Assembly (NCBI GenBank): GCA_025356335.1
Contig: JANXUF010000082.1
Location: 1,910-65,909 of the forward strand
Origin: Actinomycetes bacterium
GTDB lineage: Bacteria > Actinomycetota > Acidimicrobiia > Acidimicrobiales > Ilumatobacteraceae
Reading direction: 5' to 3'
DNA: 64,000 bases
The position numbers and the translations under genes were made by a program. Position 1 is the stretch's first letter; each line of letters opens with the position of its first letter. Below the pieces are notes generated by a model. It was not told the origin of the DNA, searched no databases, and was given only the letters and a program-made list of their open reading frames with translations. Shown piece by piece: positions 1,878-16,461 of the stretch.

Positions 1878-3496
1878 TCGCTACCGGCCTCTGCAACACC
1901 CGTCGCGATCAGTGCCGGGGTGGGGACATCAGTCGTCGGCCGGCCATCACCGGTACCGGTCCGGACTCGGGACAGACCGTGCTGGGTCTTCTCCCAATAG
2001 GCCGGGTCTCGCAGCAGTTGCCACAGCGCCTTGATCGCCGCCAGCGACATCAGCACCCAGTACAGCGGCATCAGCAGCGCAGCTTTGAACATCGACCGTT
2101 GCTGGTATTCGTAGGCGGTGATGCAGTTCATATAGAAGATCAGGCAGTTGCCGACGAGCCACAGGAACAGGCCCGTGTAGTACAGCGGGGCCGGCATGAT
2201 CTGGCGGAGGAACGCCGGCTCCAGAAGGAACCAGACGGCCAGCAGGAACCAGAACACCGGATTGAGAATTGCCAGAAGCGGCGTTCCGCCGACAAAGAGG
2301 TTGAACCGCAGGAACTGGCGCAAGCCGAGTTCCCGATACATCTGTCGCGGGTGGCGAAGGTGGACGAGCCACGTCTGCAGGTAGCCCTTGTACCAGCGGC
2401 TGCGCTGCTTCACCCAGTTGATGACGTCGGTGTTCGCCTCTTCCAGCGTTATTGAATCAAGCAGTTCAACCCTGTAACCCTGGCGGTACATGCGGATGCC
2501 GAGGTCCGCATCCTCCGTCACGTTGTAGCTGTCCCAGCCACCGAGCGGAACGAGGATGTCCCGCCTGAAGTGGTTCGATGTACCGCCGAGCGGAATCGGC
2601 GCATCCGTGACCTTGAGGCCGGGTAGGAATTGCGAGAACCACGTGCGGTACTCGATCGAGAACCATCTCGTCAGCAAATTCTCGTCGGCGTTGAAGTACG
2701 CCAGTTCCGCCTGTACGCAAGCGACTTCGGGGCCGCATCGGGTGAACGCGATCGCCATGCGGCGTAGTTGCAGCCGGTCCGGAACATCCTCTGCGTCGTA
2801 GATACTGACGATGTCGCCGGTGCTCGTCAGCAGTCCGTAGTTCAGCGCCTTCGGTTTGGTACGCGGCGCTGCGGCCGGGACGATCACCGCCTTGATGTGA
2901 TCGGGGAGTTCGAGCGATCCCACTGCCTCGGTGGTGTCGATGTCATCCTCCTCGAGGAGCAGCATCACCTGCAGGAGATGCTGCGGGTATTCGAGGTTGG
3001 CCAATCCGGTGACGACATCGCCGATGACTTCGGCCTCGTGATAGGCGGGAACGAGCACCGTGACGGTCGGCAGTTCGGACTCCGGGAACGCTCGCGCTTC
3101 GTCGTCGGGGATCGTGATCCGGCTCGTCCGCTGGCGGGCGGTGATCATCACGAGGTGGAGTCGGAACCACACCACACCCAGATAGGTCGCCATCGACAGG
3201 CCGAGCATCACGGTGCCGGTGCCGATCGGGAAGAAGGCGAATCCGGCCACCACCACGAGTGCCATCAGTATGAAGCCGGCCCGCTGCGGTGTGGTGAAGC
3301 GGGTCTTGGCCGAGTAGGCGGGGAAGGCCTCCGCCAGGCCGTCCCTCGCCCATTCCAACGAGTCGATGCTCTCGGCTGAGTGGTCGAACACGTGTGGCTC
3401 CACGAACTCAGGGGCAGCCCAGGAGCCGGACATTCCGACGACATCGGATGAGTCGGTTCCGCCGCCTGGATTGTTCGACTCGTCCTGCACCATCAA
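1874..3496 (-). CDS. Membrane-embedded family-2 glycosyltransferase (processive-synthase-like architecture)
   Basis: 540 aa. N-terminal TM pair, GT-A core (VLVPAYHEAEV, YDAEDVP) and a QRSRWYKG (QxxRW) motif, followed by several C-terminal TM helices. Confidence 0.8.
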   Translation of the reverse strand: MMVQDESNNPGGGTDSSDVVGMSGSWAAPEFVEPHVFDHSAESIDSLEWARDGLAEAFPAYSAKTRFTTPQRAGFILMALVVVAGFAFFPIGTGTVMLGLSMATYLGVVWFRLHLVMITARQRTSRITIPDDEARAFPESELPTVTVLVPAYHEAEVIGDVVTGLANLEYPQHLLQVMLLLEEDDIDTTEAVGSLELPDHIKAVIVPAAAPRTKPKALNYGLLTSTGDIVSIYDAEDVPDRLQLRRMAIAFTRCGPEVACVQAELAYFNADENLLTRWFSIEYRTWFSQFLPGLKVTDAPIPLGGTSNHFRRDILVPLGGWDSYNVTEDADLGIRMYRQGYRVELLDSITLEEANTDVINWVKQRSRWYKGYLQTWLVHLRHPRQMYRELGLRQFLRFNLFVGGTPLLAILNPVFWFLLAVWFLLEPAFLRQIMPAPLYYTGLFLWLVGNCLIFYMNCITAYEYQQRSMFKAALLMPLYWVLMSLAAIKALWQLLRDPAYWEKTQHGLSRVRTGTGDGRPTTDVPTPALIATGVAEAGSE

Positions 3497-3603
3497 CCGA
3501 CTTTGGACCCTGTTCTTCTGGTATTCAACTGACCGCCACCGAATTGCGGCGCAGTTGTCGCTGCGTTCGACTGCTGTTCACCTGGATGACGTCTGGCAGA
3601 CAC

Positions 3604-4401
3604 TCAGGCGGCGTTGGCGTACGATTCCGCACTCGTGCCCAGGGCGCGCCGGCTGCGGTATTTGACGACGTCGACGAGCACGTCGGCGGCGTACTGCATG
3701 CCGTTGACATGACACTTCTCGTCGCCGTAGTACGTCGGGATGGGGATCTCCACGAAGCGGCCGCCGGCGTCCTTGACGCCGAGGATGATCTGCGTGTCGA
3801 ACTCGAAGCCGTCAGCCATCGAGTCGAACGCCAGCTTGCGCAGCACCGATGTGCTGTAGGCGCGATAGCCGGAATGCCATTCCGTCAGATGGAGCCCGCT
3901 GGCAAGGTTTTGGCAGAACGTCAACAAGCGGTTGCCGAGGAACTTGTACATCGGCATCCCGCCGAGACGTGCACCACCGCGTGTCATCATGCGGGAGCCG
4001 AAAACCGCTTCGGCCTTGCCGTCGATGAGCGGGGTGACCATCGCCATCGCCAGCTCCGGCGCATACTGGCCGTCGCCGTGGATCATCACGACCTGTTCGA
4101 AGCCGAGCCGGATCGCCCACTGGTAGCAAAATTTCTGGTTGCCTCCGTAGCCACGATTCTTGATCTGCTTGACGACCGTGACGGGCACCTCAGGGTGAGC
4201 TTCGGCCCAACACTGTGCACGCCCGACGGTGTCGTCCTTCGATGCGTCGTCGCTCACGAGGATGGCGCCGACGGACCGGGAGAAGGTCGAAGGAATGCGG
4301 TCGAGGACCCACTCGATCGTCGACTCTGCGTTGTAGGTGACGATGACGATGGCAACACTGTGGAAAGCGGGAGCGGGAGCGGGTGCGGCGGCGGACTTCA
4401 T
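3604..4401 (-). CDS. Soluble family-2 glycosyltransferase, polyprenyl-phosphate-sugar synthase-like (DPM1/GtrB type)
   Basis: 265 aa with motifs VAIVIVTYNAESTI, VSDDASKDDT and MIHGDGQY. Confidence 0.75.
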   Translation of the reverse strand: MKSAAAPAPAPAFHSVAIVIVTYNAESTIEWVLDRIPSTFSRSVGAILVSDDASKDDTVGRAQCWAEAHPEVPVTVVKQIKNRGYGGNQKFCYQWAIRLGFEQVVMIHGDGQYAPELAMAMVTPLIDGKAEAVFGSRMMTRGGARLGGMPMYKFLGNRLLTFCQNLASGLHLTEWHSGYRAYSTSVLRKLAFDSMADGFEFDTQIILGVKDAGGRFVEIPIPTYYGDEKCHVNGMQYAADVLVDVVKYRSRRALGTSAESYANAA

Positions 4402-4623: not shown

Positions 4624-5880
4624 TTACTGCGTTGCTACCGAGCAGCCATAGCCACTGGTGCGTAGTGCGGCTGGAACGGTCTGGAAGCCCTCGGCGAAGA
4701 TTGCGCTGTTGATCTCCGTCTTGTAGTTCACACCGGTCACGGTGTCGGTCGTGTGCGAGGTCGACGACGGATGGCAGAGCCACGACACGAACTGGCGAAC
4801 GGCGCCACCCGGGCCACTCGTGGCTCCGTACACGGTGTCCGCCGCGTTGTTACAAGCCCCTGCAGCGCCAGGCGTTGTCACACAATCGGCGTCGGTGTTC
4901 TTGGTGACAAGGTAGAGCGTACGAAGCACCGGGTAAGTCTGGTTATTCGTGTTCGCCGCTGTGGGAGTTGCCGGAGCAACCGTGTAGTCGTTGGTCAATG
5001 CAACGAGGTTGCTGGCCACTGACGTTCCGGTGTTGGCAGACAATCCGGTGTTCGTGTACGGGTAGGTCTTCCAGTCTCCGAAGGACATCCACCACACGAA
5101 GTCATTCGGGTTGTTGTTGACGTTGGTATCGGCCAGCAGCGGCTTGACATCATTCTCAAACGGAGCGATGCCGGTCGTCAGCTTGCGGACACACGTCCCG
5201 AAGGTCGGGTTCCCCATCCACGTCACGAACGTCGATCGCGTGCCCGAGGAAGCGTTCATGTCCCACGGGACAACCGTGTCAGTGTCAGTGAATTTCAGCC
5301 CCGTCGTTGCATCGGTGAACTTGTCCCAGGTCGTGAACCCAGGCAGGCAGGAGTACATATTGAATAGGTCCTGCTTCGACAGGATCGCCTGACGCGTACC
5401 AAATGTGACGACAGCGATTGCATCTCGGCCGAAGCCCCAGCCAGTAGTGCTCGCCAATTCTGTCGACGATGGAACCCGCGACGAACGAGCGTACGTGATC
5501 GGCGGGTTGTACTGCACGCCTGTCGGTAGCAGGGAGTTGATACCGGCACCTGATCCGATGGCAGCAGCGTCGACGAGGACGTCATGGTCGTAGTTGCCCT
5601 TGACATCACCGGTCGAGGCCGGCGCGCCGGCACACTTTGCCTTGGTCGCACTCGTCGTGCCGGTGTCCAACGCACAGCCTGGAGCACCGTTGTACAATGT
5701 ATCGAGGCGTTGCTGGACGAGGTAGGTCGTGTCGGACCCGCCACCTACAACGACGTCCGGGGAGTCGTCGTAGCCCGAGCCGCTCGGGGCGGCGCTAGCG
5801 GTGTTGCTGGCAAACGTCGCTGCGATCAGGCCGAGCGAAACACCTGCGATGAGAAAGCGCTTGATCTTCATGTTGGTCAT
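4624..5880 (-). CDS. Secreted PstS-family / PBP-like phosphate-binding protein (third paralog, no C-terminal anchor)
   Basis: 418 aa. Signal peptide MKIKRFLIAGVSLGLIAATFASNTASA. PstS-like GGGSDTTY and GSGAGINS motifs. Lies 5 nt downstream of the 5886-6473 gene. Confidence 0.7.
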   Translation of the reverse strand: MTNMKIKRFLIAGVSLGLIAATFASNTASAAPSGSGYDDSPDVVVGGGSDTTYLVQQRLDTLYNGAPGCALDTGTTSATKAKCAGAPASTGDVKGNYDHDVLVDAAAIGSGAGINSLLPTGVQYNPPITYARSSRVPSSTELASTTGWGFGRDAIAVVTFGTRQAILSKQDLFNMYSCLPGFTTWDKFTDATTGLKFTDTDTVVPWDMNASSGTRSTFVTWMGNPTFGTCVRKLTTGIAPFENDVKPLLADTNVNNNPNDFVWWMSFGDWKTYPYTNTGLSANTGTSVASNLVALTNDYTVAPATPTAANTNNQTYPVLRTLYLVTKNTDADCVTTPGAAGACNNAADTVYGATSGPGGAVRQFVSWLCHPSSTSHTTDTVTGVNYKTEINSAIFAEGFQTVPAALRTSGYGCSVATQ

Positions 5881-5885
5881 CTCCT

Positions 5886-6473
5886 TCAGGCCACGTTCGC
5901 CATTTGGCGCTTGCGGGTGATCATGTAGGCACCGCCGAGTACGGCGGCCCCGCCGAGGGGCAGCAGCACGTTGAGCGGAACTTCCGGCGTGTTGGCTGGT
6001 GGCGAAAAGCTGATAGGGGTAAAGAAATCAGAGGCGCTGTTCGTCGGTGTGCCAGGCGCAATCCGGATGTAGCAGGTCGTGTAGACCGGCCCGCCGCTGG
6101 CGGTGAGGCCGGCGTTTCCGCAGCCCCAGTCACCGTTACCGGGCTCATCGCCGGTGAACAGTGCGAAGGCCGAACCGGCATAGTTGCCGGAGTTGTCCGA
6201 CTTGAATTGAACTTCGTTGTAGGACGAGCAGTCGTTGAGATAGTTGAACGTCGGATCGGTGTCCGTCTTGCGGCACTCCTCGACGAAGCCGTACTGGCCA
6301 GGCAGAAGCCCGGTCCACGACACGTTCACACTGGGGTTGGCACCCGGTGTGCCGTCGATCCCGCTGCTCGGCGTCACGATCACGGAGGCGGCATTGGCTG
6401 CAGCGGCGAAGCCGGCGATGCCGACTGCGGCGACTCCTGCTGCCACGGCAATTCGCTTGATGCGCATTGTCAT
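5886..6473 (-). CDS. Small secreted protein of unknown function with PANxPExP-type C-terminal sorting tail
   Basis: Signal peptide MRIKRIAVAAGVAAVGIAGFAAAANA, with AAAGGA as RBS upstream of the ATG at 6473. Cys-containing ~130-aa domain. C-terminus PPANTPEVPLNVLLPLGGAAVLGGAYMITRKRQMANVA. Confidence 0.7.
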   Translation of the reverse strand: MTMRIKRIAVAAGVAAVGIAGFAAAANAASVIVTPSSGIDGTPGANPSVNVSWTGLLPGQYGFVEECRKTDTDPTFNYLNDCSSYNEVQFKSDNSGNYAGSAFALFTGDEPGNGDWGCGNAGLTASGGPVYTTCYIRIAPGTPTNSASDFFTPISFSPPANTPEVPLNVLLPLGGAAVLGGAYMITRKRQMANVA

Positions 6474-6584
6474 TGTTGTCCTTTCAAGACACACTGGAAC
6501 CGCACGCCCTTCGTACGTTCCCGGGTCCAGTGTCCGGCAACAGCCACACGATTGGAACCCTTTAGAGGGACTGTTGGCGAGCCC

Positions 6585-6687: not shown

Positions 6688-7617
6688 TCAGCGAGTCGCA
6701 GCAAGAAGACTGTCAGCAAACAACGCGAGCCAAAGGAAGGCGACGAGCGCAACCGGCGCGAGTACGGCCAACACAAGGAGCGATCGCCCGCGTGCCTTGA
6801 GCAATCGCCACGTCAGCGCCGATGCCATCAGTCCGAGGTTCCCGTACAGCAGGAAAAGACCTGAAGGTTCATCCGGATCCGTCGCCAGCAACGAGATCGT
6901 CCGGGGCGTCGTCGGACCACCGGCGACGGAGTCCGGAGTAGTCGCGGTCACGACGAACGAGTCGTCGCTTGACCACCCACCGGCACCCGTTACGAGCACC
7001 AGTGTCGAGGTGCGGTCACTGGCCGGAGGAAGGCCGGCGGCGAGTTCGCTCTGCGGATACCTCCGCACGCCTGTGACGGTGTATGTGATGACGGGGGCCC
7101 TATTGCGCGCCTCAACGTAGATATTGTCGCCCTGTTTCAACTCGGGCACACCCTTGAACGGCCCGCCGTAAACCGATCGGTGGCCGAAAACAACGAGCGC
7201 ACCCCGCTGGCCCGGAAGCACACTCGATACGCTGACCGCCGGACCAGACCTCAGATTCGTGGCGTTCGCCCCAACAACGATCACTTCATTGACTCCGAGC
7301 GTCGGAATCTGAATCACACCGAACGCATCGCCGTTGCTGACCTTCGGCCGTCCGGAAGCAATCGCTGCAGCGAGGTGCCGCTGGCGTTGATCGTGCATCA
7401 GTCCGGTGATGAGTCGTTCGTATACAAGCAATCCCACGAAGGCCACCAGCACGACGACAACGGCACGCTTCAACCATCTCTCGGCCGAAATCCGCCGATG
7501 GACTCGACCTTTCCTGCGGACCGGCTGTGGGGCGACGGGAAGCGCTGCGCCGAATAACGGTGGTCGGACGGCCGGCACCGCAACGGTCGATGGATCCCCG
7601 GTCATCAGGTCCATCAC
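6688..7617 (-). CDS. Sortase-fold membrane protein lacking the catalytic Cys and Arg (pseudo-sortase)
   Basis: 309 aa. N-terminal TM anchor. Sortase pattern VVFGHRSVYGGPF...LKQGDNIYVEA...ITYTV. The TLxTC site reads TLVLVTGAGG (Gly codon GGT at 6985-6987) and the downstream Arg position reads DDSFVVTA. Extra C-terminal TM helices. 4-nt overlap with the upstream PstS-like gene. Confidence 0.65.
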   Translation of the reverse strand: MMDLMTGDPSTVAVPAVRPPLFGAALPVAPQPVRRKGRVHRRISAERWLKRAVVVVLVAFVGLLVYERLITGLMHDQRQRHLAAAIASGRPKVSNGDAFGVIQIPTLGVNEVIVVGANATNLRSGPAVSVSSVLPGQRGALVVFGHRSVYGGPFKGVPELKQGDNIYVEARNRAPVITYTVTGVRRYPQSELAAGLPPASDRTSTLVLVTGAGGWSSDDSFVVTATTPDSVAGGPTTPRTISLLATDPDEPSGLFLLYGNLGLMASALTWRLLKARGRSLLVLAVLAPVALVAFLWLALFADSLLAATR

Positions 7618-9545
7618 GAGCCTGCGAAACGTCGGAGATAGAACGAGCGCCCGAGAAGAAATCCGAGCGCACCGAGCACGAACGTTCCCAGTTTCTTGAA
7701 TCCACTCCCGTCCGAAGGTGAGCCCATCGGCAGTGTCGTCGAGTAGGTCGCCACCCGGGTCGACGGAGGCCCGGTGACGACTGCTTCAGTTGATGGCCGA
7801 GCTTCGATGGGCACTTCTGTTCCAACCGGCACCACGTCGGCGGGGAGCGTGACGGCGGCAACCGGCTCGGATTCAATTGTCCCCTCAGTCGTCGCTGTCG
7901 TCGTTGTCGTCGTTGTCGTTGTCGTTGCCGTTGTCGTTTTTGTCGTTGTTCTCGTCGCCCTCACAGCAGTGGTGGCTCGCGCCGCAGCGGTACTCGTGGC
8001 TTGCACCGTCGACTCGTCGACCGGTGTCTTCGTCGAGTCGGTGACAGTCGTCGGAACGGTTGTCGGCATTGCCGTCGTTTCCGTGATCGTCTCCGGAACG
8101 GTCGGAGTTTCGGCAAGGGTGGAGTCGGCGATGGTCGTCGGCTCTGGCGTCGGAACCATCGAGCAGTGCTTCATCGTCCCGATTGCGACAACCCCAGGTG
8201 TTGCCGGTTCGTTCGGGCCAGGCCCGCCGGACACGATCCGCTCGTCCGTCCCGGTGCAGTTGGACGCGACCAACGCGTCCGCCTGTTGCAAAGCCTCGAT
8301 CTTCATCGCCTGCGTCAGGCTGACGCCGCCGTTGTCAACAACCGTCTGCTGCCCGTCGGTCACAACGTACCGAATGAGCGCGGCAATAGCGTTTGTCTGC
8401 TCGATCGACAGACCACTGCTCGGCGCGTAGAGGCGATTTACATAAACCATGGGATAGGCCCCATCGACCTCGTTGGTTGCGGCATAGTTCGGCTGGTCGC
8501 CGCCGGCGACGAGCGCCGCTTGCACCGCCTGCGGGGTGGGAAGGACGTATTGGCCGAGCGCATTCCTTACTGAGGCCGTAACGAACTTCATACCGGAAGC
8601 GGCGTAGTCCTTCGTCGCCTTCTTCACCGAATCGGTGTTCACCGCTGCAGCGTTGGCACCCCACGACCCGCCGGTGTCGCCGTCGCTGTTCGGGAAGCCA
8701 GCGCGCGTGAACGCAGCCAACACGCCGGTCGTGTATCCGCCACGGGGAACTACCGTCGCTCCGGCACTGATCGGATAGCGCTCACCTGCCCCTGTCCAGT
8801 TGCGTCCGGACCCGGCCTTGCTCAACGCCAACGCCCAATCGTCAGGCGAGATCTTCTGGATGTAGTTCAGCAAATACTGGTTCACCGAGGTGCCCTCGAG
8901 TTGGTAGACGAAGGCGGCAAGATTCGGACTGTCGGGGTTGCTCAGCCGTAACGTCGGCACGTCGATGGCCGCTTTCCATGGGTCTGCACTGAAAAATGTG
9001 CGCCCGCCCCACCCGGCGATCAGCGCTGCGAGATTCTGCGGTGGCAGGTTCAGGTTGCCCACGTATGGCGTGTCGGTGGGATCGCACTGTTCGGCCCCCG
9101 CATCGAGCTCGCACCCTGCGGGAAGAAACGTTCGTATCTGATACATATCGGCCCTGATGCCGAAGAACACGGAAATCGACGCCACCGAGACGGGAACCGA
9201 GATCAACGGCGTCGAGTTGGCCGGCCGCGATCGCAGCTCGTCGGAGCTGAACGGGTCCGCCGAGATCGCGAAGTCCACCTTCCCATTCAGCAGCGCAGCG
9301 CGACCGTCCCGATCTCCCGACGTCTGATAGCCGACGTCCACCGATCCGGCGGCACCGTAGAGGGCGTTCTGCCACGGAATTACATCAGCGTTGAGGCCGG
9401 CTGCGCCTGCCCCAAAGATCTCGACCGGAACCGGTTCGGCAGCGGCCCACACCGGGCGCAACATCATCATCGAACAGGCGCCGGACAAAATGAAGCCGAG
9501 CGCCGATCTCACGGTGAGGTGGCCCCGACGTCGTCGCCGTTTCAC
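7614..9545 (-). CDS. Large PstS-like substrate-binding protein with Thr-rich linker and C-terminal TM anchor
   Basis: 643 aa. Signal peptide. PBP-like core (VDFAISADPFS). ~130-aa Thr/Pro/Glu-rich linker including a T10 run. C-terminus GFKKLGTFVLGALGFLLGRSFYLRRFAGS. Confidence 0.65.
   Translation of the reverse strand: MKRRRRRGHLTVRSALGFILSGACSMMMLRPVWAAAEPVPVEIFGAGAAGLNADVIPWQNALYGAAGSVDVGYQTSGDRDGRAALLNGKVDFAISADPFSSDELRSRPANSTPLISVPVSVASISVFFGIRADMYQIRTFLPAGCELDAGAEQCDPTDTPYVGNLNLPPQNLAALIAGWGGRTFFSADPWKAAIDVPTLRLSNPDSPNLAAFVYQLEGTSVNQYLLNYIQKISPDDWALALSKAGSGRNWTGAGERYPISAGATVVPRGGYTTGVLAAFTRAGFPNSDGDTGGSWGANAAAVNTDSVKKATKDYAASGMKFVTASVRNALGQYVLPTPQAVQAALVAGGDQPNYAATNEVDGAYPMVYVNRLYAPSSGLSIEQTNAIAALIRYVVTDGQQTVVDNGGVSLTQAMKIEALQQADALVASNCTGTDERIVSGGPGPNEPATPGVVAIGTMKHCSMVPTPEPTTIADSTLAETPTVPETITETTAMPTTVPTTVTDSTKTPVDESTVQATSTAAARATTAVRATRTTTKTTTATTTTTTTTTTATTEGTIESEPVAAVTLPADVVPVGTEVPIEARPSTEAVVTGPPSTRVATYSTTLPMGSPSDGSGFKKLGTFVLGALGFLLGRSFYLRRFAGS
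7889..7957 (-). repeat. GTY/ACN triplet low-complexity tract encoding poly-Thr
   Basis: gtcgtcgctgtcgtcgttgtcgtcgttgtcgttgtcgttgccgttgtcgtttttgtcgttgtt encodes TTTKTTTATTTTTTTTTTATT on the minus strand. Confidence 0.9.
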
Positions 9546-11398
9546 GAGCGCAGGCCTTCACGCTTCGAAGCTCCAGCCACGAGCACCCCGAGGGCGCAGA
9601 CGCCGGCACCCTCCAAGAGAGCCCACGCCACCTGTTGGCCATCGACACCAACTTTCGCTTCGGCGCTGACCACCGGGCCGGCCTTCTTCACCGCGACCTG
9701 CCCTGAAGAGATCGCTGCCTGGGTTCGACCATCGACGCTGTCCGGCGGTGTGTCGACTGTGAGCGCTGCGGCGTCAGTTTCGGACGTGCCACCCGCAGCT
9801 CCTGAGTCGACGGCTGTTTGCTGCCCGTCTACTACACACGAGGCGTCTGAAGAGGACGCGGTGGTCGCTGGGACCGAGGATTCTGTCGAGGCAGTGGTCG
9901 AGAGATCTGTCGCGGTTGGAGTCAACGGATCTGGCGTCGTTGCCACCGACGTCGTGCAGGTCGGCGAAATCGTTGCCGGCGCACCACCAACCACCGTTAC
10001 TGTCGACGTCGCTTTCGTCGTCACCGTCGACGACCCCGATTTTGTCGTCACCGTCGACGACCCAGCCTTTGTCGTAGCTGTCGAGGACCCGGCCTTTGTC
10101 GTCACCGAGGAGGACCCGGCCTGGGTCACCGTCGCCCCGCCGGGCTGTGTTGCCGCCGGCTGCCCGGCCTTTGTCGTCACCGACTTCGGTGCCGTCGTCG
10201 TAGAGGGGGTCGTAGTGGTGACAGTCGGTGAACCGCTCAGTACGGCGCACTGCTCCCATGGAGGGGCTCCCGGAATCTTGGCGATCGCATCCTTGGCAAT
10301 AGCGACCAACTCAGCTGACAGCGGAGCGTACCCGTCGGGGATGCTCTGCTTGCCCTGGCCCTTCGTCACTGCGTAGCAAAGAAATCGCGCCAGCACCTGC
10401 CCCTTGGCGGGGTCGAAGCCGGTCGTCTGGGAAATCACATAGCTATAGGTCGAGGGGAAATAGGCGGCCGGATCGCTCGCCGAGAACTTGAGGATGAAAG
10501 TGCCGTCGTCGTTCTTCTGTGCGTATGACAGCGCCTTGTTGACGTTCGCCGCCGTCGGCGCAAGAAAATTCCCGGCCGCCGTCTGCATCAACGCGTTCGG
10601 AAATCCATCCTTGATCGCAAAGCCGGCCTCGTTGTAGGTGATGGTTCCTTCGCCATTCGAATCGGCAACGACTGACGCCACGCCGTCAGCATTGAAACCC
10701 GTGACACTGTGGCCGAACTGCGGCGGCCACGTCGACGTCGGTCGCCCGGCGATCAGTTCCGGGTCACCCGTCTGCGGTCCGAGCGTGGCAGCGAACTTCT
10801 GCCAGACGTCTGGGGCAACAGCGATACAGAATTGGGAGAACACATAGCTGGTTCCGGAACCGTCCTGACGTACCACTGGCCGAACCAGTTCATGCTTGAA
10901 GGCGATGTCCGGGTTCGGTCCGGCGATGTCCGGATCGTCCCAATACAGATCGGCCGTCTCGGTGAATATGCGGCACGCGGCCCGGCGGGTCAATTTGAGG
11001 TCGGTGATCTGTGCGCCGCTCTCGTCGGTCAAGTTGTACATCAGTCCCAAGCCGCCAGCACTCACTGGGACGTAGACGAAGTCCTTGCGCGGCGAGGCGT
11101 TGAGCGGCCCTATCTCCGAAGGTTGGAACGGGATATCGGACGCGCCGAAATCCAGGCTCCCCTGGATGTATTGCGTGCGCCCGTACGTCGAACCCTGCGA
11201 GTTGTAGTTGACGGAAAGGCTGTAGGGAGCTTTGCCGGTTTCGGCCTGCCACTGGTCGATCTCGAGCTTGGCGAACGATGAACCGCCACCATTGACGGTC
11301 GCACCATCGGCGAAGCTGCTCGGCACGCGCGCAAGCAATGGGGTAGCGGCCACGGCCGCCGCAGCCAAGAGCCGCACCAGCTTTGTCCAACGGTTCAT
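9542..11398 (-). CDS. pstS: PstS phosphate-binding protein with Ser/Thr-rich repeat linker and C-terminal TM anchor
   Basis: 618 aa. Signal peptide. GGGSSFAKLEIDQW and LDFGASDIPF PstS motifs. TTKAGSSTV 9-aa repeats. C-terminal helix ALLEGAGVCALGVLVAGASKRE. 4-nt overlaps with pstB and with the next PstS-like gene. Confidence 0.8.
   Translation of the reverse strand: MNRWTKLVRLLAAAAVAATPLLARVPSSFADGATVNGGGSSFAKLEIDQWQAETGKAPYSLSVNYNSQGSTYGRTQYIQGSLDFGASDIPFQPSEIGPLNASPRKDFVYVPVSAGGLGLMYNLTDESGAQITDLKLTRRAACRIFTETADLYWDDPDIAGPNPDIAFKHELVRPVVRQDGSGTSYVFSQFCIAVAPDVWQKFAATLGPQTGDPELIAGRPTSTWPPQFGHSVTGFNADGVASVVADSNGEGTITYNEAGFAIKDGFPNALMQTAAGNFLAPTAANVNKALSYAQKNDDGTFILKFSASDPAAYFPSTYSYVISQTTGFDPAKGQVLARFLCYAVTKGQGKQSIPDGYAPLSAELVAIAKDAIAKIPGAPPWEQCAVLSGSPTVTTTTPSTTTAPKSVTTKAGQPAATQPGGATVTQAGSSSVTTKAGSSTATTKAGSSTVTTKSGSSTVTTKATSTVTVVGGAPATISPTCTTSVATTPDPLTPTATDLSTTASTESSVPATTASSSDASCVVDGQQTAVDSGAAGGTSETDAAALTVDTPPDSVDGRTQAAISSGQVAVKKAGPVVSAEAKVGVDGQQVAWALLEGAGVCALGVLVAGASKREGLRS
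10013..10121 (-). repeat. 27-bp in-frame tandem repeat, 4 copies
   Basis: Units begin at 10013, 10041, 10068 and 10095 (tttgtcgtcaccgtcgacgacccagcc-like) and encode TTK(A/S)GSST(A/V). A degenerate fifth copy lies near 10168. Confidence 0.85.
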
Positions 11399-12354
11399 CC
11401 GAACCGCCCGGTGACGTATGCCAGCGTGCGTTCGTCCGAGGGTTGATTGAACAGATGGTCAGTGGCACCCGCCTCGACGATGCGCCCCGGCACGCCCTGC
11501 TCCTCGACGAGGAAAAACGCACACTGGTGCGATACACGTTGCGCCTGCTGCATGTTGTGCGTCACGATCACGATGGTGATGTCGTCAGCAATCTGCTGAA
11601 TCGTCTCCTCGACCACGCGCGTCGAGATCGGATCGAGTGCAGAGCACGGTTCGTCCATCAGCAACACCCGTGGACGGACGGCAAGCGAACGAGCGATACA
11701 CAACCGCTGCTGCTGGCCTCCGGAAAGCGACATCCCACCCTCGTTGAGGCGGTCCTTGACCTCCGTCCACAGCCCCGCCCGCGTCAGGCATTCCTCGACC
11801 AATGCATCCCGGTCGGTCGACTTGGTCCCTGACAGCTTCAACCCGGCCAACACATTCTCACGAATCGACATCGCCGGGAATGGATTGGGTTTCTGGAACA
11901 CCATGCCAATGCGCATCCGGACCTGAGTGACGGACAATTCGCGTCCATAGATGTCGACGCCGTCGAGTTCGACGCTGCCAGCGACTTTTGCCACGCGGAT
12001 CACTTCGTGCATCCGATTGAGGATGCGCAGGAACGTCGACTTGCCACAGCCGGACGGCCCGATCAGCGCCGTGACCTGACGAGCCTCCATTCGCAGGCTG
12101 CACCGTTGTAGGACCTTCCGCGACCCGAACCACGCGCTGACGTCCGTGGCAGCGAGCGTCGCCGGCGATCCGGAACCGAGACTCGTGCCGGGCATGGGCT
12201 GCGTGGACGGAACTGGAACCTTCGCGATCTCTCTGGCGATGAGACCGCTACTCCAACTGTCCGGTTCGGCCGCAACGATCGGCGGGAGGCCGTTCCAATC
12301 CTCCAACGACGGATCCTGCGTCGCCACCTCTCTTTCGAATTGATCGAACGACAT
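11395..12354 (-). CDS. pstB: Phosphate ABC transporter ATP-binding protein
   Basis: GPSGCGKSTFLR (Walker A), LSGGQQQRLCIARSLAV, LLMDEPCSALDP, THNMQQAQRVS. Has a ~55-aa N-terminal extension if the 12354 start is used. Confidence 0.9.
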   Translation of the reverse strand: MSFDQFEREVATQDPSLEDWNGLPPIVAAEPDSWSSGLIAREIAKVPVPSTQPMPGTSLGSGSPATLAATDVSAWFGSRKVLQRCSLRMEARQVTALIGPSGCGKSTFLRILNRMHEVIRVAKVAGSVELDGVDIYGRELSVTQVRMRIGMVFQKPNPFPAMSIRENVLAGLKLSGTKSTDRDALVEECLTRAGLWTEVKDRLNEGGMSLSGGQQQRLCIARSLAVRPRVLLMDEPCSALDPISTRVVEETIQQIADDITIVIVTHNMQQAQRVSHQCAFFLVEEQGVPGRIVEAGATDHLFNQPSDERTLAYVTGRFG

Positions 12355-12357
12355 CTG

Positions 12358-13551
12358 CTAGTTCCTTCCAAGTCGCTTGGCGCCGCGGGCCCCGATCCAC
12401 CGAGCCATGGTGAAAAGCACCAGCACGAAGAGCAGCAACAGCAATGCAGCCGCCCAGGCTCTGTCGTTCTGCAGCACGCTCTGGGTCCTGATGTTGCCGT
12501 AGGCGAAGGTGGGCAGCGACGATTGCGGTTCCTTGAGCGGGTTCTTGTTCATGAATTTGCTGTCAAATGCTGTCAGCAGAACGGGCGCCGTCTCTCCGAT
12601 CGCCCGGGCAATACCAAGAATCGACGCCGTCAACAGTCCGCTCTTGGCGGTGGGGAGGACCACTCTGGTCACGACGCGCCACTGCGGAGCTCCGAGCGCC
12701 AATGCCGCCTCACGGAGCGAGTCCGGCACGGTCCTGAGAATCTCTTCCGACGTTCTGGTCACCGTTGGAATCATCAAGATGGCCAAGGCCTCTGCAGCGT
12801 GGATACCCGCATATCTGGGCCAGATCGAGAAGATCAGCAGGCCGGCGACGATCGAGGGCAAGCCGGCCAGTCCTTCGACGATGAAACGGATCGCACGCGC
12901 CATCCGCCCTTCCAGCTCGTGGAGATAGACCGCAGTCAGAATGGACACCGGTATCGCAAACGCGGCGGCTATGCCCACCTGTTCGAAGCTGCCGACCATC
13001 GAATGCAAGACGCCGCCGCCAGGAGTATTCGGACCTGCGGTTCGCATGTCGCGGACGAGAAAGCCTGGGCGGAGTTGCTTGACACCCTTGAGGGCGACGA
13101 ACCCGAAGATCCACATGAGGCTGGCGACGACGAGGGCCCCGATGACCCATATCAGGGTCGTCGTCATGCGATCGGCAGCGAGTTCCTTCGTCGACGACTG
13201 CCGCACGAGCGCGTAATGGAAGCAGATGAACGACACCAGGAAGAGAACGACGAAGCTGAGCAGGCCGCCCCAATCGAGCAGCATCCGCAGGGCGACCACC
13301 AGATTGACTGCGGTGAGTGTCGCGAGCGTATATTCGACCACGACGGCGCTGGTCGTCCGCCCGACTGAGCGCGGCGAATCGTCATCGTCGGAATCCTGAA
13401 TGTCGGCAACCACCTCACTGGTGACGGAGTGGACTCTCCTGCGCCGCCTCGGTCCCTTCCGCGCTGTCGCAGGTCCGCGAAGCATCGTCGGCACCGCTCC
13501 CGAAGCTTCATCGGTGAGTACCTCGCCGGAGGAAATGTCGGCAGAAGTCAC
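12358..13551 (-). CDS. pstA: Phosphate ABC transporter permease PstA (long N-terminal extension)
   Basis: Six-TM MetI-type permease core with the EAALALGAPQWRVV loop. 4-nt overlap with pstC. Confidence 0.85.
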   Translation of the reverse strand: MTSADISSGEVLTDEASGAVPTMLRGPATARKGPRRRRRVHSVTSEVVADIQDSDDDDSPRSVGRTTSAVVVEYTLATLTAVNLVVALRMLLDWGGLLSFVVLFLVSFICFHYALVRQSSTKELAADRMTTTLIWVIGALVVASLMWIFGFVALKGVKQLRPGFLVRDMRTAGPNTPGGGVLHSMVGSFEQVGIAAAFAIPVSILTAVYLHELEGRMARAIRFIVEGLAGLPSIVAGLLIFSIWPRYAGIHAAEALAILMIPTVTRTSEEILRTVPDSLREAALALGAPQWRVVTRVVLPTAKSGLLTASILGIARAIGETAPVLLTAFDSKFMNKNPLKEPQSSLPTFAYGNIRTQSVLQNDRAWAAALLLLLFVLVLFTMARWIGARGAKRLGRN

Positions 13552-14540
13552 GAGAACCTCGTCGTTCTGGCCACGACGCGGCGGGCTGCGAATCCGACGG
13601 TGAAGGTCAATGCCATGAGCGCAACGCCGGAGGCGACAAGCGCGCTGAGCTCGAGCGGCGACGCCTCTCCGAACCGGAGGAAAATGTTCGCGGCGATCGA
13701 ACCGGCACCGTGTTGCACGATATGAGGGTTCGCTTGATACGAGATATTCTGTAGTACCAGAGCGACCGCCACGGTTTCACCCAGCGCTCTGCCGAAGCCC
13801 AGCATGGTCGCGCCGACGACGCCGGATTTCCCATACGGCAGAATCACGTCGCGGATCATCGCCCACCGACTGCCGCCCAATGCCAAAGCGCCTTCGCATT
13901 GTTCCCGTGGGACCCGCGCCATCACGTCTCGGGAGACCGACGTGATGATCGGCACGATCATCATCCCGACGACCAGACCGGCGATCATGCTGCTCCCGGT
14001 GAAGTCCGGCTTGCCTGTTGCGTTGCTGAGCCGGAAGAACGGGATCGCAACCAGGTGGTCCGAGATCCAACGCGAGACGGGGATGAGATGGTTCTTGAAG
14101 GCGAAATAGCCCCACATACCGAAGATCAGGCTCGGCACCGCAGCAAGCAGATCGATCACGGCTGTCAGCGTCCGACCGATACGCGGCGGCGCGTACTCGT
14201 TGACGAACAACGCCATCCCGACGGCTAGCGGCACCGCCACGATCAGCGCAATTGTGGCGATGGTGATCGTTCCGATCACGAGGCCGAGTACGCCGAAATC
14301 GCCAACCGCTGCGTTCCAGACGCTCGCTGTGAAGAAGTGCCACACACCGGTTTTGGCGAGCGCCGGTCTGGATTTGTTGAGCAGAAAGATCGCCGTCGCG
14401 GCGATGATCACCAATGCCACGGAGGCGGAGGCGACGCAGATCACCCGGAAGATTCGATCGCCGACCGTCGGGTTGTCAGCCGGCCTGATCGGTATGTCGT
14501 TCGACGGATCGTCGCTGAATCCCACCGGAGGCGCGACCAT
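13548..14540 (-). CDS. pstC: Phosphate ABC transporter permease PstC
   Basis: Permease core with EGALALGGSRWAMIRDV. I prefer the ATG at 14540 because a GAGGAG RBS lies 8 nt upstream. The ATG at 14567 is an alternative. The ORF-track start at 14849 is an Arg/Ser-rich extension. Confidence 0.85.
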   Translation of the reverse strand: MVAPPVGFSDDPSNDIPIRPADNPTVGDRIFRVICVASASVALVIIAATAIFLLNKSRPALAKTGVWHFFTASVWNAAVGDFGVLGLVIGTITIATIALIVAVPLAVGMALFVNEYAPPRIGRTLTAVIDLLAAVPSLIFGMWGYFAFKNHLIPVSRWISDHLVAIPFFRLSNATGKPDFTGSSMIAGLVVGMMIVPIITSVSRDVMARVPREQCEGALALGGSRWAMIRDVILPYGKSGVVGATMLGFGRALGETVAVALVLQNISYQANPHIVQHGAGSIAANIFLRFGEASPLELSALVASGVALMALTFTVGFAARRVVARTTRFS

Positions 14541-14617
14541 GGGCGCGGCTCCTCGCAGGAATGTCATGCCCCGATGTTGCGAGACCTGAGTAGACACCAA
14601 CTGACGTGCGGATGGAC

Positions 14618-14650
14618 GCCAGATGAACAGTGGTCCAGTCGGCTGTGAAC
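14618..14650 (-). promoter_or_regulatory. PHO-box-like repeats in the pstC / exosortase divergent region
   Basis: Minus strand reads GTTCACAgccg actggaccact GTTCATCtggc, with the two GTTCA units 22 nt apart. The site lies 78-110 nt upstream of the pstC ATG (14540) and ~50-80 nt upstream of the exosortase ATG (14701). Confidence 0.5.
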
Positions 14651-14700
14651 TCGACACTGACCGGCATGTAGCGAGGTCGGGTTCCTGCGAGCCTCGTGGC

Positions 14701-16461
14701 ATGAGCGCTGTCACGCCCCGACTGACCGACGATCTCGAGTCCACAACGGTCAATGGCCTGCCCGCCACATCAGTCGCTAGGACATTCCGAGTCACCGCAC
14801 TTGTGTCATCGGTGCGCACTGGCAGGTGGGTTCGCCCGGCGATCGTCACCGGCAGCGTCGTCCTTGCGTATCACACCAGCCTGCAGACGCTCATCGACGG
14901 ACTCAGCCTCGACACCCCGATCGCTCATCTTGCGTTGGTCCCGCTGATAGCCCTGATGTTGGCGCTCGCCGCCCGCCACAACGACGCCGGTCCGGATATC
15001 AGCGACCGTCAGCTGGATTGGATCGTCGGGTTCCCGCTCGTCTTTGGGGCGTTGATGGCGAACTTGATTTTGCCGGCCCGACTGTCGGCGCAGTTCTGGC
15101 TGTGGCGTATCGACTTACTGACGATGCCCTTCTTTGCGGCTGGCGTCGTCACCCTCGTCTACGGTATTCGCACGACCTGGAAGATGCGTTACGGCCTGTT
15201 CTTCCTGTTCCTCGCATGGCCCTATCCGTACAACGTTGCTCTGACGAACTGGCTCGGCAAGTTCACCGACCTCACCGTCGCCGGGCTTGCCAAGTCGCTC
15301 AACGTCGTCCACCTCGCCAGGCAGATGGGCAATGGGTCGCCACTGTTCGAAATCACCCATGGAACATCCAAGTTCACGCTCTCCGTTGCCTCCGCCTGTT
15401 CGGGAGCGAACGGGCTCGTCGGGTTCCTGCTCGTCGGCATCGCCTTCGCGTTGATGGTCGAAGGCACGCGCTGGCAGAAGTTCCTGTGGTTGGCAATCGG
15501 CGCGATCCTCGTGTGGCTGCTGAACATCGGCCGTCTGCTCGTGGTGTTCTTCGCCGCTCATCGTTGGGGTGAGAAAGTGGCGATCGACGGTTTCCATCCG
15601 TTCGTCGGTCTGATCGCCTTCACGCTCGGCGTAGCGATCATGGTGCTGGTGATGGGACGTTTCGGTCTGCGATTCAAAGCGATCGACAACCGAATCAAGG
15701 CAAAAGCCAAGGCAGCACTCACGAGTCGCTCATCGACTGCCCCACGACTGCGCTACAGCGCGATGTGCGTCGCAGTGATGACCCTCGGCGTCGGCTTCAT
15801 GAACTCCAGCCTGGAGAAGAACGACCTCGTGTCCACGAGTCTCGGCTCGCCCCGGCTCGTCGCGTTCGCCGAGAGCAAGGAGACGCCACCCGGGTGGAAC
15901 CTTCAGACCGTGCAAACGATCGAATGGGCGAAACCGTTCTTCGGCGACAGCTCCGAATGGGTGAGATACCAATACCTCAGCGCCGGCACGACCTCGGACC
16001 TGCAGTCGTCCGCCCCGATCACGACGGACATCATCGATACACCGAGTCGGTCGGCACTCAACGCCTATGGCGTCGAGGCGTGCTACAACTTCCATGGCTA
16101 CAAGGTCACAGGTGTGAAAAGTGTCGACATGGGCGGCGGTGTCGTCGGCGAGCTACTCACTTGGAGTAGTCCGAATGGCAAAGTCACATATACGACTCTC
16201 TACTGGCATTGGCCGATCAAGACACCGAAGGGGACGAGCTACGAACGGGTCACTCTGATCATCGTCGACCAGCCGTCGAATACCTTCAAATCCCCGGATC
16301 TCGGGACGAGTTTCGTCGATCAGATCGGCATCAAGGCGAACGACGCGATTCGATCGGCAGGCAACGACGAGTCCGTCGACCGCCTACTGCGGACCCGTCA
16401 ATTCCTCGTCGCCTTCGGCCGTGAGATGATTCAGAAACGCAAGCCGGCAGCGACCTCCTGA
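14701..16461 (+). CDS. Exosortase/archaeosortase-family membrane protein with fused C-terminal EpsI-like extracytoplasmic domain
   Basis: Polytopic. Motifs LSVASACSGANGLVGF (Cys codon 15397-15399), LLNIGRLL (Arg codon 15532-15534), then AAHRWG / DGFHPF His residues. This Cys..Arg..His order and spacing (C-R = 45 aa) is typical of exosortases. After one more TM helix comes a ~220-aa domain containing YGVEACYNFHGYKV. The start is uncertain: ATG 14623 or 14701, or GTG 14803. Confidence 0.75.
   Translation: MSAVTPRLTDDLESTTVNGLPATSVARTFRVTALVSSVRTGRWVRPAIVTGSVVLAYHTSLQTLIDGLSLDTPIAHLALVPLIALMLALAARHNDAGPDISDRQLDWIVGFPLVFGALMANLILPARLSAQFWLWRIDLLTMPFFAAGVVTLVYGIRTTWKMRYGLFFLFLAWPYPYNVALTNWLGKFTDLTVAGLAKSLNVVHLARQMGNGSPLFEITHGTSKFTLSVASACSGANGLVGFLLVGIAFALMVEGTRWQKFLWLAIGAILVWLLNIGRLLVVFFAAHRWGEKVAIDGFHPFVGLIAFTLGVAIMVLVMGRFGLRFKAIDNRIKAKAKAALTSRSSTAPRLRYSAMCVAVMTLGVGFMNSSLEKNDLVSTSLGSPRLVAFAESKETPPGWNLQTVQTIEWAKPFFGDSSEWVRYQYLSAGTTSDLQSSAPITTDIIDTPSRSALNAYGVEACYNFHGYKVTGVKSVDMGGGVVGELLTWSSPNGKVTYTTLYWHWPIKTPKGTSYERVTLIIVDQPSNTFKSPDLGTSFVDQIGIKANDAIRSAGNDESVDRLLRTRQFLVAFGREMIQKRKPAATS

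What the first reader, a model, noticed from the sequence alone, without database searches (positions are those of the whole stretch)
6688..7617. Sortase-fold protein with Cys-to-Gly and Arg loss at the active site, translationally coupled to two tail-anchored PstS paralogs
The protein follows the sortase pattern (N-terminal TM, GHRSVYGGPF, LKQGDNIYVEA, ITYTV). Where TLxTC is expected it reads TLVLVTGAGG (Gly GGT at 6985-6987, one transversion away from TGT). The downstream catalytic Arg position reads DDSFVVTA. The conserved His is retained. Two extra TM helices follow the domain. The gene overlaps the preceding PstS-like gene by 4 nt and is the last gene of pstC-pstA-pstB-pstS-pstS'. Loss of two catalytic residues argues for a real pseudo-enzyme (a scaffold or receptor for the anchored PstS proteins?) rather than a sequencing error.
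Basis: partly seen in the sequence, partly recalled or inferred. Interest (0 to 1): 0.6.

Follow-up and report, generated by a model that had tools for sequence, protein, structure and literature searches.

The report
Dead sortase in phosphate-transporter operon
This gene encodes a membrane protein with the fold of a sortase (the enzyme that staples proteins to Gram-positive cell walls) but no cysteine at all; it belongs to a large actinobacterial family, apparently undescribed, that was found in a second phosphate-transporter operon in every case examined, so it probably holds protein tails instead of cutting them.

Summary
ORF 6688-7617(-) has a sortase domain (Pfam E=6e-15) and a confident sortase fold (pLDDT 90; the top PDB matches are sortases). 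It keeps His146. It has Gly211 (GGT 6985-6987) at the catalytic Cys position and Ser220 at the Arg position, and it contains no cysteine anywhere.

The Gly is not an error: the gene is base-identical in assemblies from three separate sequencing runs.

It is not a one-off. 574 cluster representatives match a 7-sequence profile (window protein plus six homologues) at E<=1e-30, and none of the 155 examined has Cys at that position (A85, S48, G12, T5, V4, N1).

Three similar Cys-bearing sortases lie elsewhere.

The nearest Cys-bearing relative (G590) sits in the same operon slot, and its PstS-like neighbours there end in LAFTG and LGRTG sorting signals. In the window's clade the upstream protein ends in a conserved LP(L/M)xxP tail (here LPMGSP).

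Best reading: a non-catalytic descendant of a dedicated class E sortase that now serves as an accessory part of a second Pst-type importer. Tail binding is inferred, not shown.

Earlier scan notes report the same family on other DNA. The papers I searched did not describe it.

The parts
6688..7617 (-). Cys-free sortase-fold membrane protein P0001 (309 aa from GTG 7617; 308 aa from ATG 7614)
   Evidence: Translation. Pfam Sortase E=5.8e-15. AlphaFold2 pLDDT 90.2, pTM 0.82. Foldseek top hits are all sortases.
7354..7485 (-). N-terminal membrane anchor plus juxtamembrane helix (residues 45-88), preceded by an Arg/Lys-rich cytoplasmic tail
   Evidence: AlphaFold2 helix 45-88. Hydropathy segment 47-74.
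6937..7326 (-). Sortase beta-barrel domain (residues 98-227)
   Evidence: Strand pattern in the model. Pfam match over 102-225. PDB profile alignment.
7180..7182 (-). His146 (CAC), the retained catalytic-position histidine
6985..6987 (-). Gly211 (GGT) at the position of the catalytic Cys of TLxTC
   Evidence: The same codon is present in three independent run assemblies.
6958..6960 (-). Ser220 (TCG) at the position of the catalytic Arg
6706..6861 (-). Two C-terminal membrane helices (residues 253-275 and 279-304) with the basic loop KARGRS between them
   Evidence: AlphaFold2 helices. The same two-helix extension occurs in Cys-bearing class E sortases of this genome and its relatives.
7614..9545 (-). 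P0002: divergent PstS-like ectoprotein with a Thr-rich linker and a C-terminal anchor, translationally coupled to the sortase-like gene
   Evidence: Weak PBP_like_2 and TIGR00975 matches. Syntenic orthologues.
7716..7733 (-). LPMGSP motif (P0002 residues 605-610), about 10 residues before the C-terminal hydrophobic helix and basic tail
   Evidence: Conserved as (L/M)P(L/M)xxP in 11 loci while the preceding linker is not alignable.
9542..11398 (-). P0003: PstS homologue that keeps the phosphate-binding motifs (GGGSSF, FGASD, RQDGSGTS), with a long linker and a C-terminal anchor
   Evidence: TIGR00975 E=3.7e-43, below cutoff. Alignment to solved PstS 8ods.
11395..12354 (-). pstB-type ATPase
   Evidence: TIGR00972 329.9 bits, just under the cutoff of 343.2.
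12358..13551 (-). pstA-type permease
   Evidence: TIGR00974 238.5 bits, over the cutoff.
13548..14849 (-). pstC-type permease (the true start is probably downstream of the ORF's first start codon)
   Evidence: TIGR02138 258.1 bits, over the cutoff.
5886..6494 (-). 202-aa secreted protein with a PEVP...LLP tail (likely exosortase target), syntenic downstream neighbour
4624..5880 (-). 418-aa PBP_like_2 protein without a C-terminal anchor, syntenic downstream neighbour

Best explanation
P0001 is a catalytically dead descendant of a class E sortase.

Shown here:
- It has the sortase fold, an N-terminal anchor and two C-terminal membrane helices, so the barrel faces outward.
- It has no nucleophile: Gly stands where the Cys should be, and there is no Cys anywhere in the protein. 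It also lacks the catalytic Arg.
- It is under purifying selection.
- It belongs to a large Cys-less family of Actinomycetota. In every locus examined, that family's genes lie inside a second, enlarged Pst-type ABC importer cluster whose extracellular proteins are held by C-terminal membrane helices.
- The closest Cys-bearing relative occupies the same operon slot, and its PstS-like neighbours carry genuine LAxTG-type sorting signals.

Inferred:
- The ancestor was a dedicated sortase that processed the operon's binding proteins.
- After losing its chemistry, the protein was kept as a non-enzymatic accessory subunit.
- Its peptide-binding groove holds, without cutting, the conserved LP(L/M)xxP tail of the upstream protein (here LPMGSP of P0002). 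Its three membrane helices keep that partner next to the PstC/PstA permease.
For: Fold and residues:
- Pfam Sortase E=5.8e-15.
- AlphaFold2 pLDDT 90.2.
- Foldseek top hits are sortases: 4d70 at target TM-score 0.77 and SrtE 5go5/5go6 at 0.69.
- Profile alignment fixes the His, Cys and Arg columns.
- The protein has zero cysteines.

The gene is real and under selection:
- It is identical in assemblies from three sequencing runs.
- dN/dS is 0.19-0.39 against orthologues, with saturated dS.

Family:
- 574 representatives at E<=1e-30.
- 0 of 155 have Cys at the site: A85, S48, G12, T5, V4, N1.
- Public names for ten representative clusters are all 'sortase' or similar.

Context:
- 18 of 18 Cys-less loci across the phylum lie in pstC/pstA/pstB/PstS-like clusters. 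Three loci without pst genes turned out to have an intact His/Cys/Arg set.
- 8 more Cys-less loci in the class show the same gene order as the window.
- The genome has a canonical pstSCAB elsewhere, on contig C68.

Live relative:
- L106 (G590) has TLTTC and an Arg, sits after pstB and two PstS-like genes, and those genes end in LAFTG and LGRTG plus a helix and an RRR tail.
- On the tree it is sister to a single clade of all 56 Cys-less rows (SH-aLRT 95 and 99).

Tail:
- (L/M)P(L/M)xxP plus spacer, helix and basic end is conserved in 11 loci, while the linker before it is not.
- In the other subfamily, 6 of 18 operons have LPxTG-, LAxTG- or xPxTG-type tails on the gene just upstream.
Against: - No direct test of binding was possible.
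- The class E Tyr of the GPGHY loop is replaced here (GPAVS), so the groove differs from that of known sortases (sequence).
- LPxTG-like tails are absent from about two thirds of the other subfamily's operons, so tail recognition may not be the family-wide role.
- His146 is retained, and several relatives keep His, Ser and Arg together. That leaves room for some chemistry in relatives.
- The tree was a quick search with SH-aLRT support only, and the root is assumed.
- Co-transcription with pst genes rests on overlapping stop and start codons and on synteny, not on RNA data.
Confidence: 0.68

Rival explanations
1. Decoy or shield. The dead sortase binds the sorting-signal-like tails only to keep the genome's real sortases from cutting them and moving the binding proteins to the cell wall. 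It has no part in the transporter itself.
For: The genome has six Cys-bearing sortase-domain genes. Some operons of the family keep perfect LAxTG or LPxTG tails that housekeeping sortases could cut.
Against: In the window's clade the tail has already lost the Thr-Gly scissile pair (LPMGSP), so it needs no shielding. In most operons the gene is directly adjacent to or overlapping pstB, which suggests co-expression with the transporter core.
Confidence: 0.12
2. Cell-wall tether. The domain keeps the second binding site of sortases (for the lipid II or peptidoglycan cross-bridge) and ties the transporter complex to the wall, independent of any protein tail.
For: Sortases bind a peptidoglycan precursor as their second substrate (established knowledge). 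Tail motifs are not universal across the family.
Against: Nothing in the data points to this site specifically. It does not explain the conserved LP(L/M)xxP tail on the gene just upstream or the live relative with LAxTG neighbours.
Confidence: 0.08
3. Still an enzyme. The His-retaining subfamily uses Ser (with His and Arg) as a nucleophile, and the window's protein either uses another residue or is a recently inactivated member.
For: In the His-retaining subfamily, Ser is the commonest residue at the Cys position (20 of 28), and 8 representatives have His, Ser and Arg together. Three of the genome loci also have His, Ser and Arg.
Against: The window has Gly, as do 7 of 28 subfamily representatives, spread over several branches; Asn and Gln also occur. 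The larger subfamily has mostly Ala together with His replaced by Arg. A position that tolerates Gly, Ala, Val, Asn and Gln is not a conserved nucleophile. Purifying selection continues in the Gly-bearing lineage.
Confidence: 0.08
4. Artefact or decaying pseudogene: a sequencing or assembly error at one codon, or a gene on its way out.
For: Gly (GGT) is one transversion from Cys (TGT). The genome is a fragmented assembly of 156 contigs.
Against: The DNA is identical in three independent run assemblies. The frame is intact in all orthologues at 42-65% identity, and dN/dS is well below 1. The sister sequences have Ser, not Cys. The Arg position is also changed and there is no Cys in the family.
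Confidence: 0.01

Closest known systems
Class E sortases of Actinobacteria (S. coelicolor SrtE1 5cuw; S. avermitilis SrtE 5go5/5go6; T. fusca SrtE 9iok)
   Same: - Same beta-barrel fold, and these are the best sequence and structure matches.
- Same N-terminal anchor.
- The two C-terminal membrane helices and the ...LLPxx(L/R) end are shared with Cys-bearing class E sortases of this genome and its relatives.
- The Cys-less clade nests next to such enzymes on the tree.
   Different: - No catalytic Cys (Gly211) and no Arg (Ser220).
- The GPGHY loop Tyr that reads the Ala of LAxTG is absent.
- It scores 61.6 bits against a cutoff of 160 for NF033747.
- Its neighbour has LPMGSP, not LAxTG.
- It is fixed in a pst operon rather than serving as a housekeeping gene.
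Operon of G590 (locus L106): a Cys-bearing class E sortase encoded after pstC-pstA-pstB and two PstS-like genes
   Same: Same gene order, with the same neighbouring exosortase and glycosyltransferase genes. The sortase has the same two C-terminal helices. It is the closest Cys-bearing relative of the Cys-less clade.
   Different: It keeps His, Cys and Arg (TLTTCHPKYSAAKRLIVVA). Its PstS-like neighbours end in LAFTG and LGRTG sorting signals, so it looks like the working version of the system.
Canonical PstSCAB phosphate importer (E. coli; M. tuberculosis with PstS1-3 lipoproteins)
   Same: PstC and PstA pass the NCBIfam cutoffs. PstB is just under its cutoff. P0003 keeps the phosphate-binding motifs.
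   Different: - The gene order is pstC-A-B-S-S'.
- The binding proteins are 618-643 aa, with long Thr/Ser/Pro linkers and C-terminal helix anchors instead of lipoprotein anchors.
- There is an extra sortase-like subunit.
- The genome has a separate canonical pstSCAB.
Pseudoenzymes in general (for example iRhoms, the inactive rhomboid homologues)
   Same: An enzyme fold kept under selection after loss of catalytic residues. It is presumed to bind what the ancestor cut (comparison from general knowledge, not tested here).
   Different: In the papers I could search, I found no pseudo-sortase of this family and no link between sortases and ABC importers.

Membership tests
Sortase superfamily (Pfam PF04203 fold) | Significant match to the sortase domain model | tested here: met
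   E=5.8e-15, 55.6 bits against a cutoff of 26.6, residues 102-225.
Sortase superfamily (Pfam PF04203 fold) | Eight-stranded sortase beta-barrel | tested here: met
   AlphaFold2 pLDDT 90.2. Foldseek probability 1.00 to many sortases, target TM-score up to 0.77.
Active sortase (cysteine transpeptidase, MEROPS C60) | Catalytic Cys in the TLxTC motif | tested here: not met
   Gly211 (GGT 6985-6987). No Cys in the whole protein.
Active sortase (cysteine transpeptidase, MEROPS C60) | Catalytic His | tested here: met
   His146 in FGHRS aligns with AGHRR of 5go5.
Active sortase (cysteine transpeptidase, MEROPS C60) | Catalytic Arg on the strand after the Cys | tested here: not met
   Ser220 aligns with the Arg of SHRLIVWA.
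Class E sortase (NCBIfam NF033747) | Score over the curated cutoff | tested here: not met
   61.6 bits against 160. It is nevertheless the best-scoring class.
Class E sortase (NCBIfam NF033747) | Partner proteins with an LAxTG sorting signal | tested here: not met
   The upstream protein ends in LPMGSP + helix + RR. P0003 has no such motif.
Cys-less sortase-like family linked to pst operons (unnamed; defined here and in earlier scan notes) | A small non-Cys residue at the TLxTC position, with the sortase fold kept | tested here: met
   0 of 155 representatives have Cys. The window has Gly, as do 12 representatives.
Cys-less sortase-like family linked to pst operons (unnamed; defined here and in earlier scan notes) | N-terminal anchor plus two C-terminal membrane helices, about 300 aa | tested here: met
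   Full-length profile matches. Helices in the model.
Cys-less sortase-like family linked to pst operons (unnamed; defined here and in earlier scan notes) | Encoded inside or beside a pstC/pstA/pstB/PstS-like cluster | tested here: met
   Window.
PstSCAB phosphate ABC importer | PstC and PstA permeases over the curated cutoffs | tested here: met
   TIGR02138 258.1 against 196.45. TIGR00974 238.5 against 193.45.
PstSCAB phosphate ABC importer | PstB and PstS over the curated cutoffs | tested here: not met
   PstB 329.9 against 343.2. P0003 147.8 against 205. P0002 39.9 against 205. The phosphate-binding motifs of P0003 are kept.

The most novel reading that the evidence does not exclude
The dead sortase is a sorting-signal receptor built into an ABC importer. 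It grips the LP(L/M)xxP tail of a stalked, probably glycosylated, binding protein and docks it at the PstC/PstA permease. This would be a first case of a sortase-derived pseudoenzyme acting as a transporter subunit. A living Cys-bearing intermediate (G590) shows how cell-wall sorting was converted into membrane retention.
Probability: 0.35. Interest if true: 0.8.

Novelty: new variant of a known kind. Interest (0 to 1): 0.66.

Why it matters
Sortases are studied as cysteine transpeptidases and drug targets, and databases name the members I looked up 'sortase' or 'sortase A'. That name would predict the wrong function for them.

A sortase fold kept for hundreds of species' worth of divergence without its nucleophile, and always inside a phosphate-transporter operon, points to an unrecognised way of organising substrate-binding proteins on the Gram-positive surface.

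The window's subfamily adds three things:
- It still has the His.
- The nucleophile position drifts among Ser, Gly, Asn and Gln.
- The partner's tail has changed from LAxTG to LP(L/M)xxP.

Together with the live G590 operon, this gives a concrete, testable series from enzyme to pseudoenzyme.

Tried and rejected
- The first structure model, built from 7 sequences, was poor (pLDDT 57.5) and I did not use it. The 130-sequence alignment gave the model I used.
- The search for related loci with family alignments failed because no stretch was conserved enough. With the single protein it found one named relative, an Actinomycetota MAG.
Independent run assemblies served instead.
- The phylum-wide profile tally (265 of 401 genomes) is not specific, because ordinary sortases match the barrel part. 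I used only full-length matches and read the catalytic residues locus by locus.
- The first tree left the relation of the two Cys-less clades to real sortases unresolved. Adding more loci gave a single Cys-less clade, but with quick-search support only.
- Promoter and terminator scans and RNA folding of the 193-nt gap after the gene found nothing: 0 sites, z=-1.1.
- I first considered the PstS tails as exosortase targets, because the neighbouring exosortase recognises PEVP...LLP tails. The 202-aa protein has that tail, but P0002 and P0003 do not (note e1-3985401).
- Literature searches for pseudo-sortases, sortases lacking Cys, and sortase with PstS gave nothing relevant.

Full report
**What is there**

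The minus-strand ORF 6688-7617 encodes 309 aa. Gene callers on other assemblies start one codon later, at ATG 7614. Its start overlaps the stop of the upstream gene (GTGA or TGATG).

Pfam places a sortase domain at residues 102-225 (E=5.8e-15). NCBIfam ranks class E sortase first, but far below its cutoff (61.6 against 160 bits).

With a 130-sequence alignment, AlphaFold2 gives a confident model (pLDDT 90.2, pTM 0.82). It shows:
- a long N-terminal helix (residues 45-88);
- a beta-barrel (98-227);
- two C-terminal helices (253-275 and 279-304).

Foldseek against the PDB returns only sortases at the top: C. perfringens SrtD 4d70 at target TM-score 0.77, and S. avermitilis SrtE 5go5/5go6 at 0.69.

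**Catalytic positions**

A profile of the family aligned to SrtE 5go5/5go6 maps three segments:
- the His of AGHRR;
- the Cys of LTLTTC;
- the Arg of SHRLIVWA.

In the window these positions are His146 (CAC 7180-7182), Gly211 (GGT 6985-6987) and Ser220 (TCG 6958-6960). The protein has no cysteine at all.

**Not an error, not a dying gene**

However, the exact protein is recorded on 10 contigs. The three fetched, from runs SRR20627847, SRR20627849 and SRR23617210, carry a gene identical to the window's at all 927 bases.

Orthologues at 42-65% identity are full length. Pairwise dN/dS is 0.19-0.39, with saturated dS.

**A large family**

An exhaustive profile search found 574 cluster representatives at E<=1e-30, nearly all about 300 aa and matched end to end. 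Among the 155 examined:
- the Cys position is Ala 85, Ser 48, Gly 12, Thr 5, Val 4, Asn 1, and never Cys;
- the His position is Arg 120, His 28, Lys 6, Tyr 1.

More than half of these proteins contain no cysteine anywhere.

The window belongs to a well-supported subfamily that keeps the His. In that subfamily the Cys position is Ser (20), Gly (7) or Asn (1). Genome loci add Gln. Gly appears on several separate branches, and the window's nearest relative has Ser. A position that drifts among small residues is structural, not a nucleophile.

Public sources call the family members I looked up 'sortase', 'sortase A' or 'LPXTG-site transpeptidase family protein'.

**Context**

In the window the gene follows pstC (13548-14849), pstA (12358-13551), pstB (11395-12354) and two further genes:
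- P0003 (9542-11398), a PstS homologue that keeps the phosphate-binding motifs;
- P0002 (7614-9545), a weakly PstS-like protein.

Both have long Thr/Ser/Pro linkers and a C-terminal helix plus basic end. A canonical pstSCAB lies on another contig (C68), so this is a second system.

I fetched 20 loci with full-length profile matches from across the phylum:
- 17 lie in pstC/pstA/pstB/PstS-like clusters, with pstB at E about 1e-107 to 1e-118 wherever it lay within the fetched stretch;
- the 3 that do not lie in such clusters have an intact His/Cys/Arg set, so they are real sortases.

A Streptomyces locus (L012) and two metagenome loci (L008, L010) agree.

A second search with a profile of the His-retaining subfamily found 9 more loci in 300 genomes of the class. 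All have the window's gene order: pstC-pstA-pstB-PstS1-PstS2-sortase-like, often followed by the 202-aa and 418-aa genes.

**A live relative**

One of those nine, L106 (G590), has TLTTCHPKYSAAKRLIVVA, that is, His, Cys and Arg all present. Its two PstS-like neighbours end in ...PLGRTG... and ...QLAFTGG..., each followed by a hydrophobic helix and RRR. These are ordinary LAxTG-type sorting signals.

On a tree rooted on sortases without the C-terminal helices, all 56 Cys-less rows form one clade (SH-aLRT 99) and L106 is its sister (95). This was a quick search and the root is assumed, so I treat a single loss of Cys from an operon-resident sortase as likely, not proven.

**The partner's tail**

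In the 11 loci of the His-retaining subfamily where it can be read, the protein encoded just upstream ends in four elements:
- (L/M)P(L/M)xxP;
- then about 8 residues;
- then a hydrophobic helix;
- then a basic end.

The window has STTLPMGSPSDGSGFKKLGTFVLGALGFLLGRSFYLRRFAGS. The linker before the motif cannot be aligned.

The layout is that of a sorting signal, but the Thr-Gly pair that sortases cut is gone.

In the other (His-to-Arg) subfamily, 6 of 18 operons have LASTG, LPSTG, LPMTG, VPVTG or HPNTG on the gene just upstream. The rest do not.

**Reading**

Shown:
- sortase fold;
- no nucleophile;
- purifying selection;
- a large Cys-less family;
- strict linkage to a second Pst-type cluster with tail-anchored ectoproteins;
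- a Cys-bearing relative in the same slot with LAxTG partners.

Inferred:
- the protein is a non-catalytic accessory part of this importer;
- it holds the tail its ancestor used to cut;
- it keeps the stalked binding protein at the permease.

Rivals are a shield against the genome's six real sortases, a cell-wall tether, residual Ser-based chemistry in relatives, and an artefact. The last is effectively excluded.

**Surroundings**

A divergent exosortase-family gene (14623-16461) lies nearby. So does a 202-aa protein with a PEVP...LLP tail.

Downstream lie two GT2 glycosyltransferases and a PMT-like membrane protein. They may glycosylate the Thr-rich linkers. PstS of S. coelicolor is O-glycosylated by Ppm1/Pmt (PMC5882110).

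**Novelty**

I found no paper describing a Cys-less sortase family or a link between sortases and pst operons in the searchable library. That library lacks most subscription journals, so this is not proof of absence.

Earlier notes of this scan report the same family on other genomes. I read them only after reaching the same conclusions from my own searches.

New here are the His-retaining subfamily, the drift at the nucleophile position, the LP(L/M)xxP tail and the live G590 operon.

Noticed in passing
L106 (G590:C241:36100-52631), sortase at locus 8242-10263: A Cys-bearing class E sortase sits after pstC-pstA-pstB and two PstS-like genes whose products end in LGRTG and LAFTG sorting signals. 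An exosortase and a GT2 gene lie downstream and a PMT-like gene upstream. It looks like the working ancestor-type version of the window's cluster.
   Followed up: partly
window 9542-9700 (C-terminus of P0003): The tail of the first PstS-like protein (...GVDGQQVAWALLEGAGVCALGVLVAGASKREGLRS) is almost unchanged in orthologues at about 50-65% identity, including a Cys inside the helix. It has no LPxTG-like motif. In the other subfamily, PstS-like tails share a GW..Q...helix...PP pattern.
   Followed up: partly
window 14623-16461 (+) and 5886-6002 (-): An exosortase-family gene is divergent from pstC. The 202-aa protein downstream of the sortase-like gene ends in TPEVPLNVLLPLGG...RKRQ, a PEP-CTERM-like tail. 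So two different C-terminal sorting-type systems sit in one cluster.
   Followed up: no
window 63-4401 (-): Two GT2 glycosyltransferases and a PMT-like polytopic membrane protein follow the cluster and are syntenic in relatives (L008, L101). They may glycosylate the Thr-rich linkers, as Pmt does for PstS in S. coelicolor (PMC5882110).
   Followed up: no
G000:C77:63287-65218 (own genome, outside the window): A Cys-bearing class E sortase in the same genome has the same two C-terminal membrane helices and ends in NRLLPPNL. The 'extra' helices of the dead sortase are therefore inherited, not new.
   Followed up: partly
G092:C1:643576-644562, G164:C1:1086074-1087054, G400:C23:210067-211062: Strong full-length matches to the family profile in one genus or family carry in-frame stops (1 TGA and 2 TAG, or 1 TAG). 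They may be decayed copies or frame changes.
   Followed up: no
window 13548-14849 (-) against 14623-16461 (+): The longest ORFs of pstC and the exosortase overlap by about 230 bases on opposite strands. The Pfam and NCBIfam matches of pstC begin near residue 130, so its true start is probably much further in.
   Followed up: no
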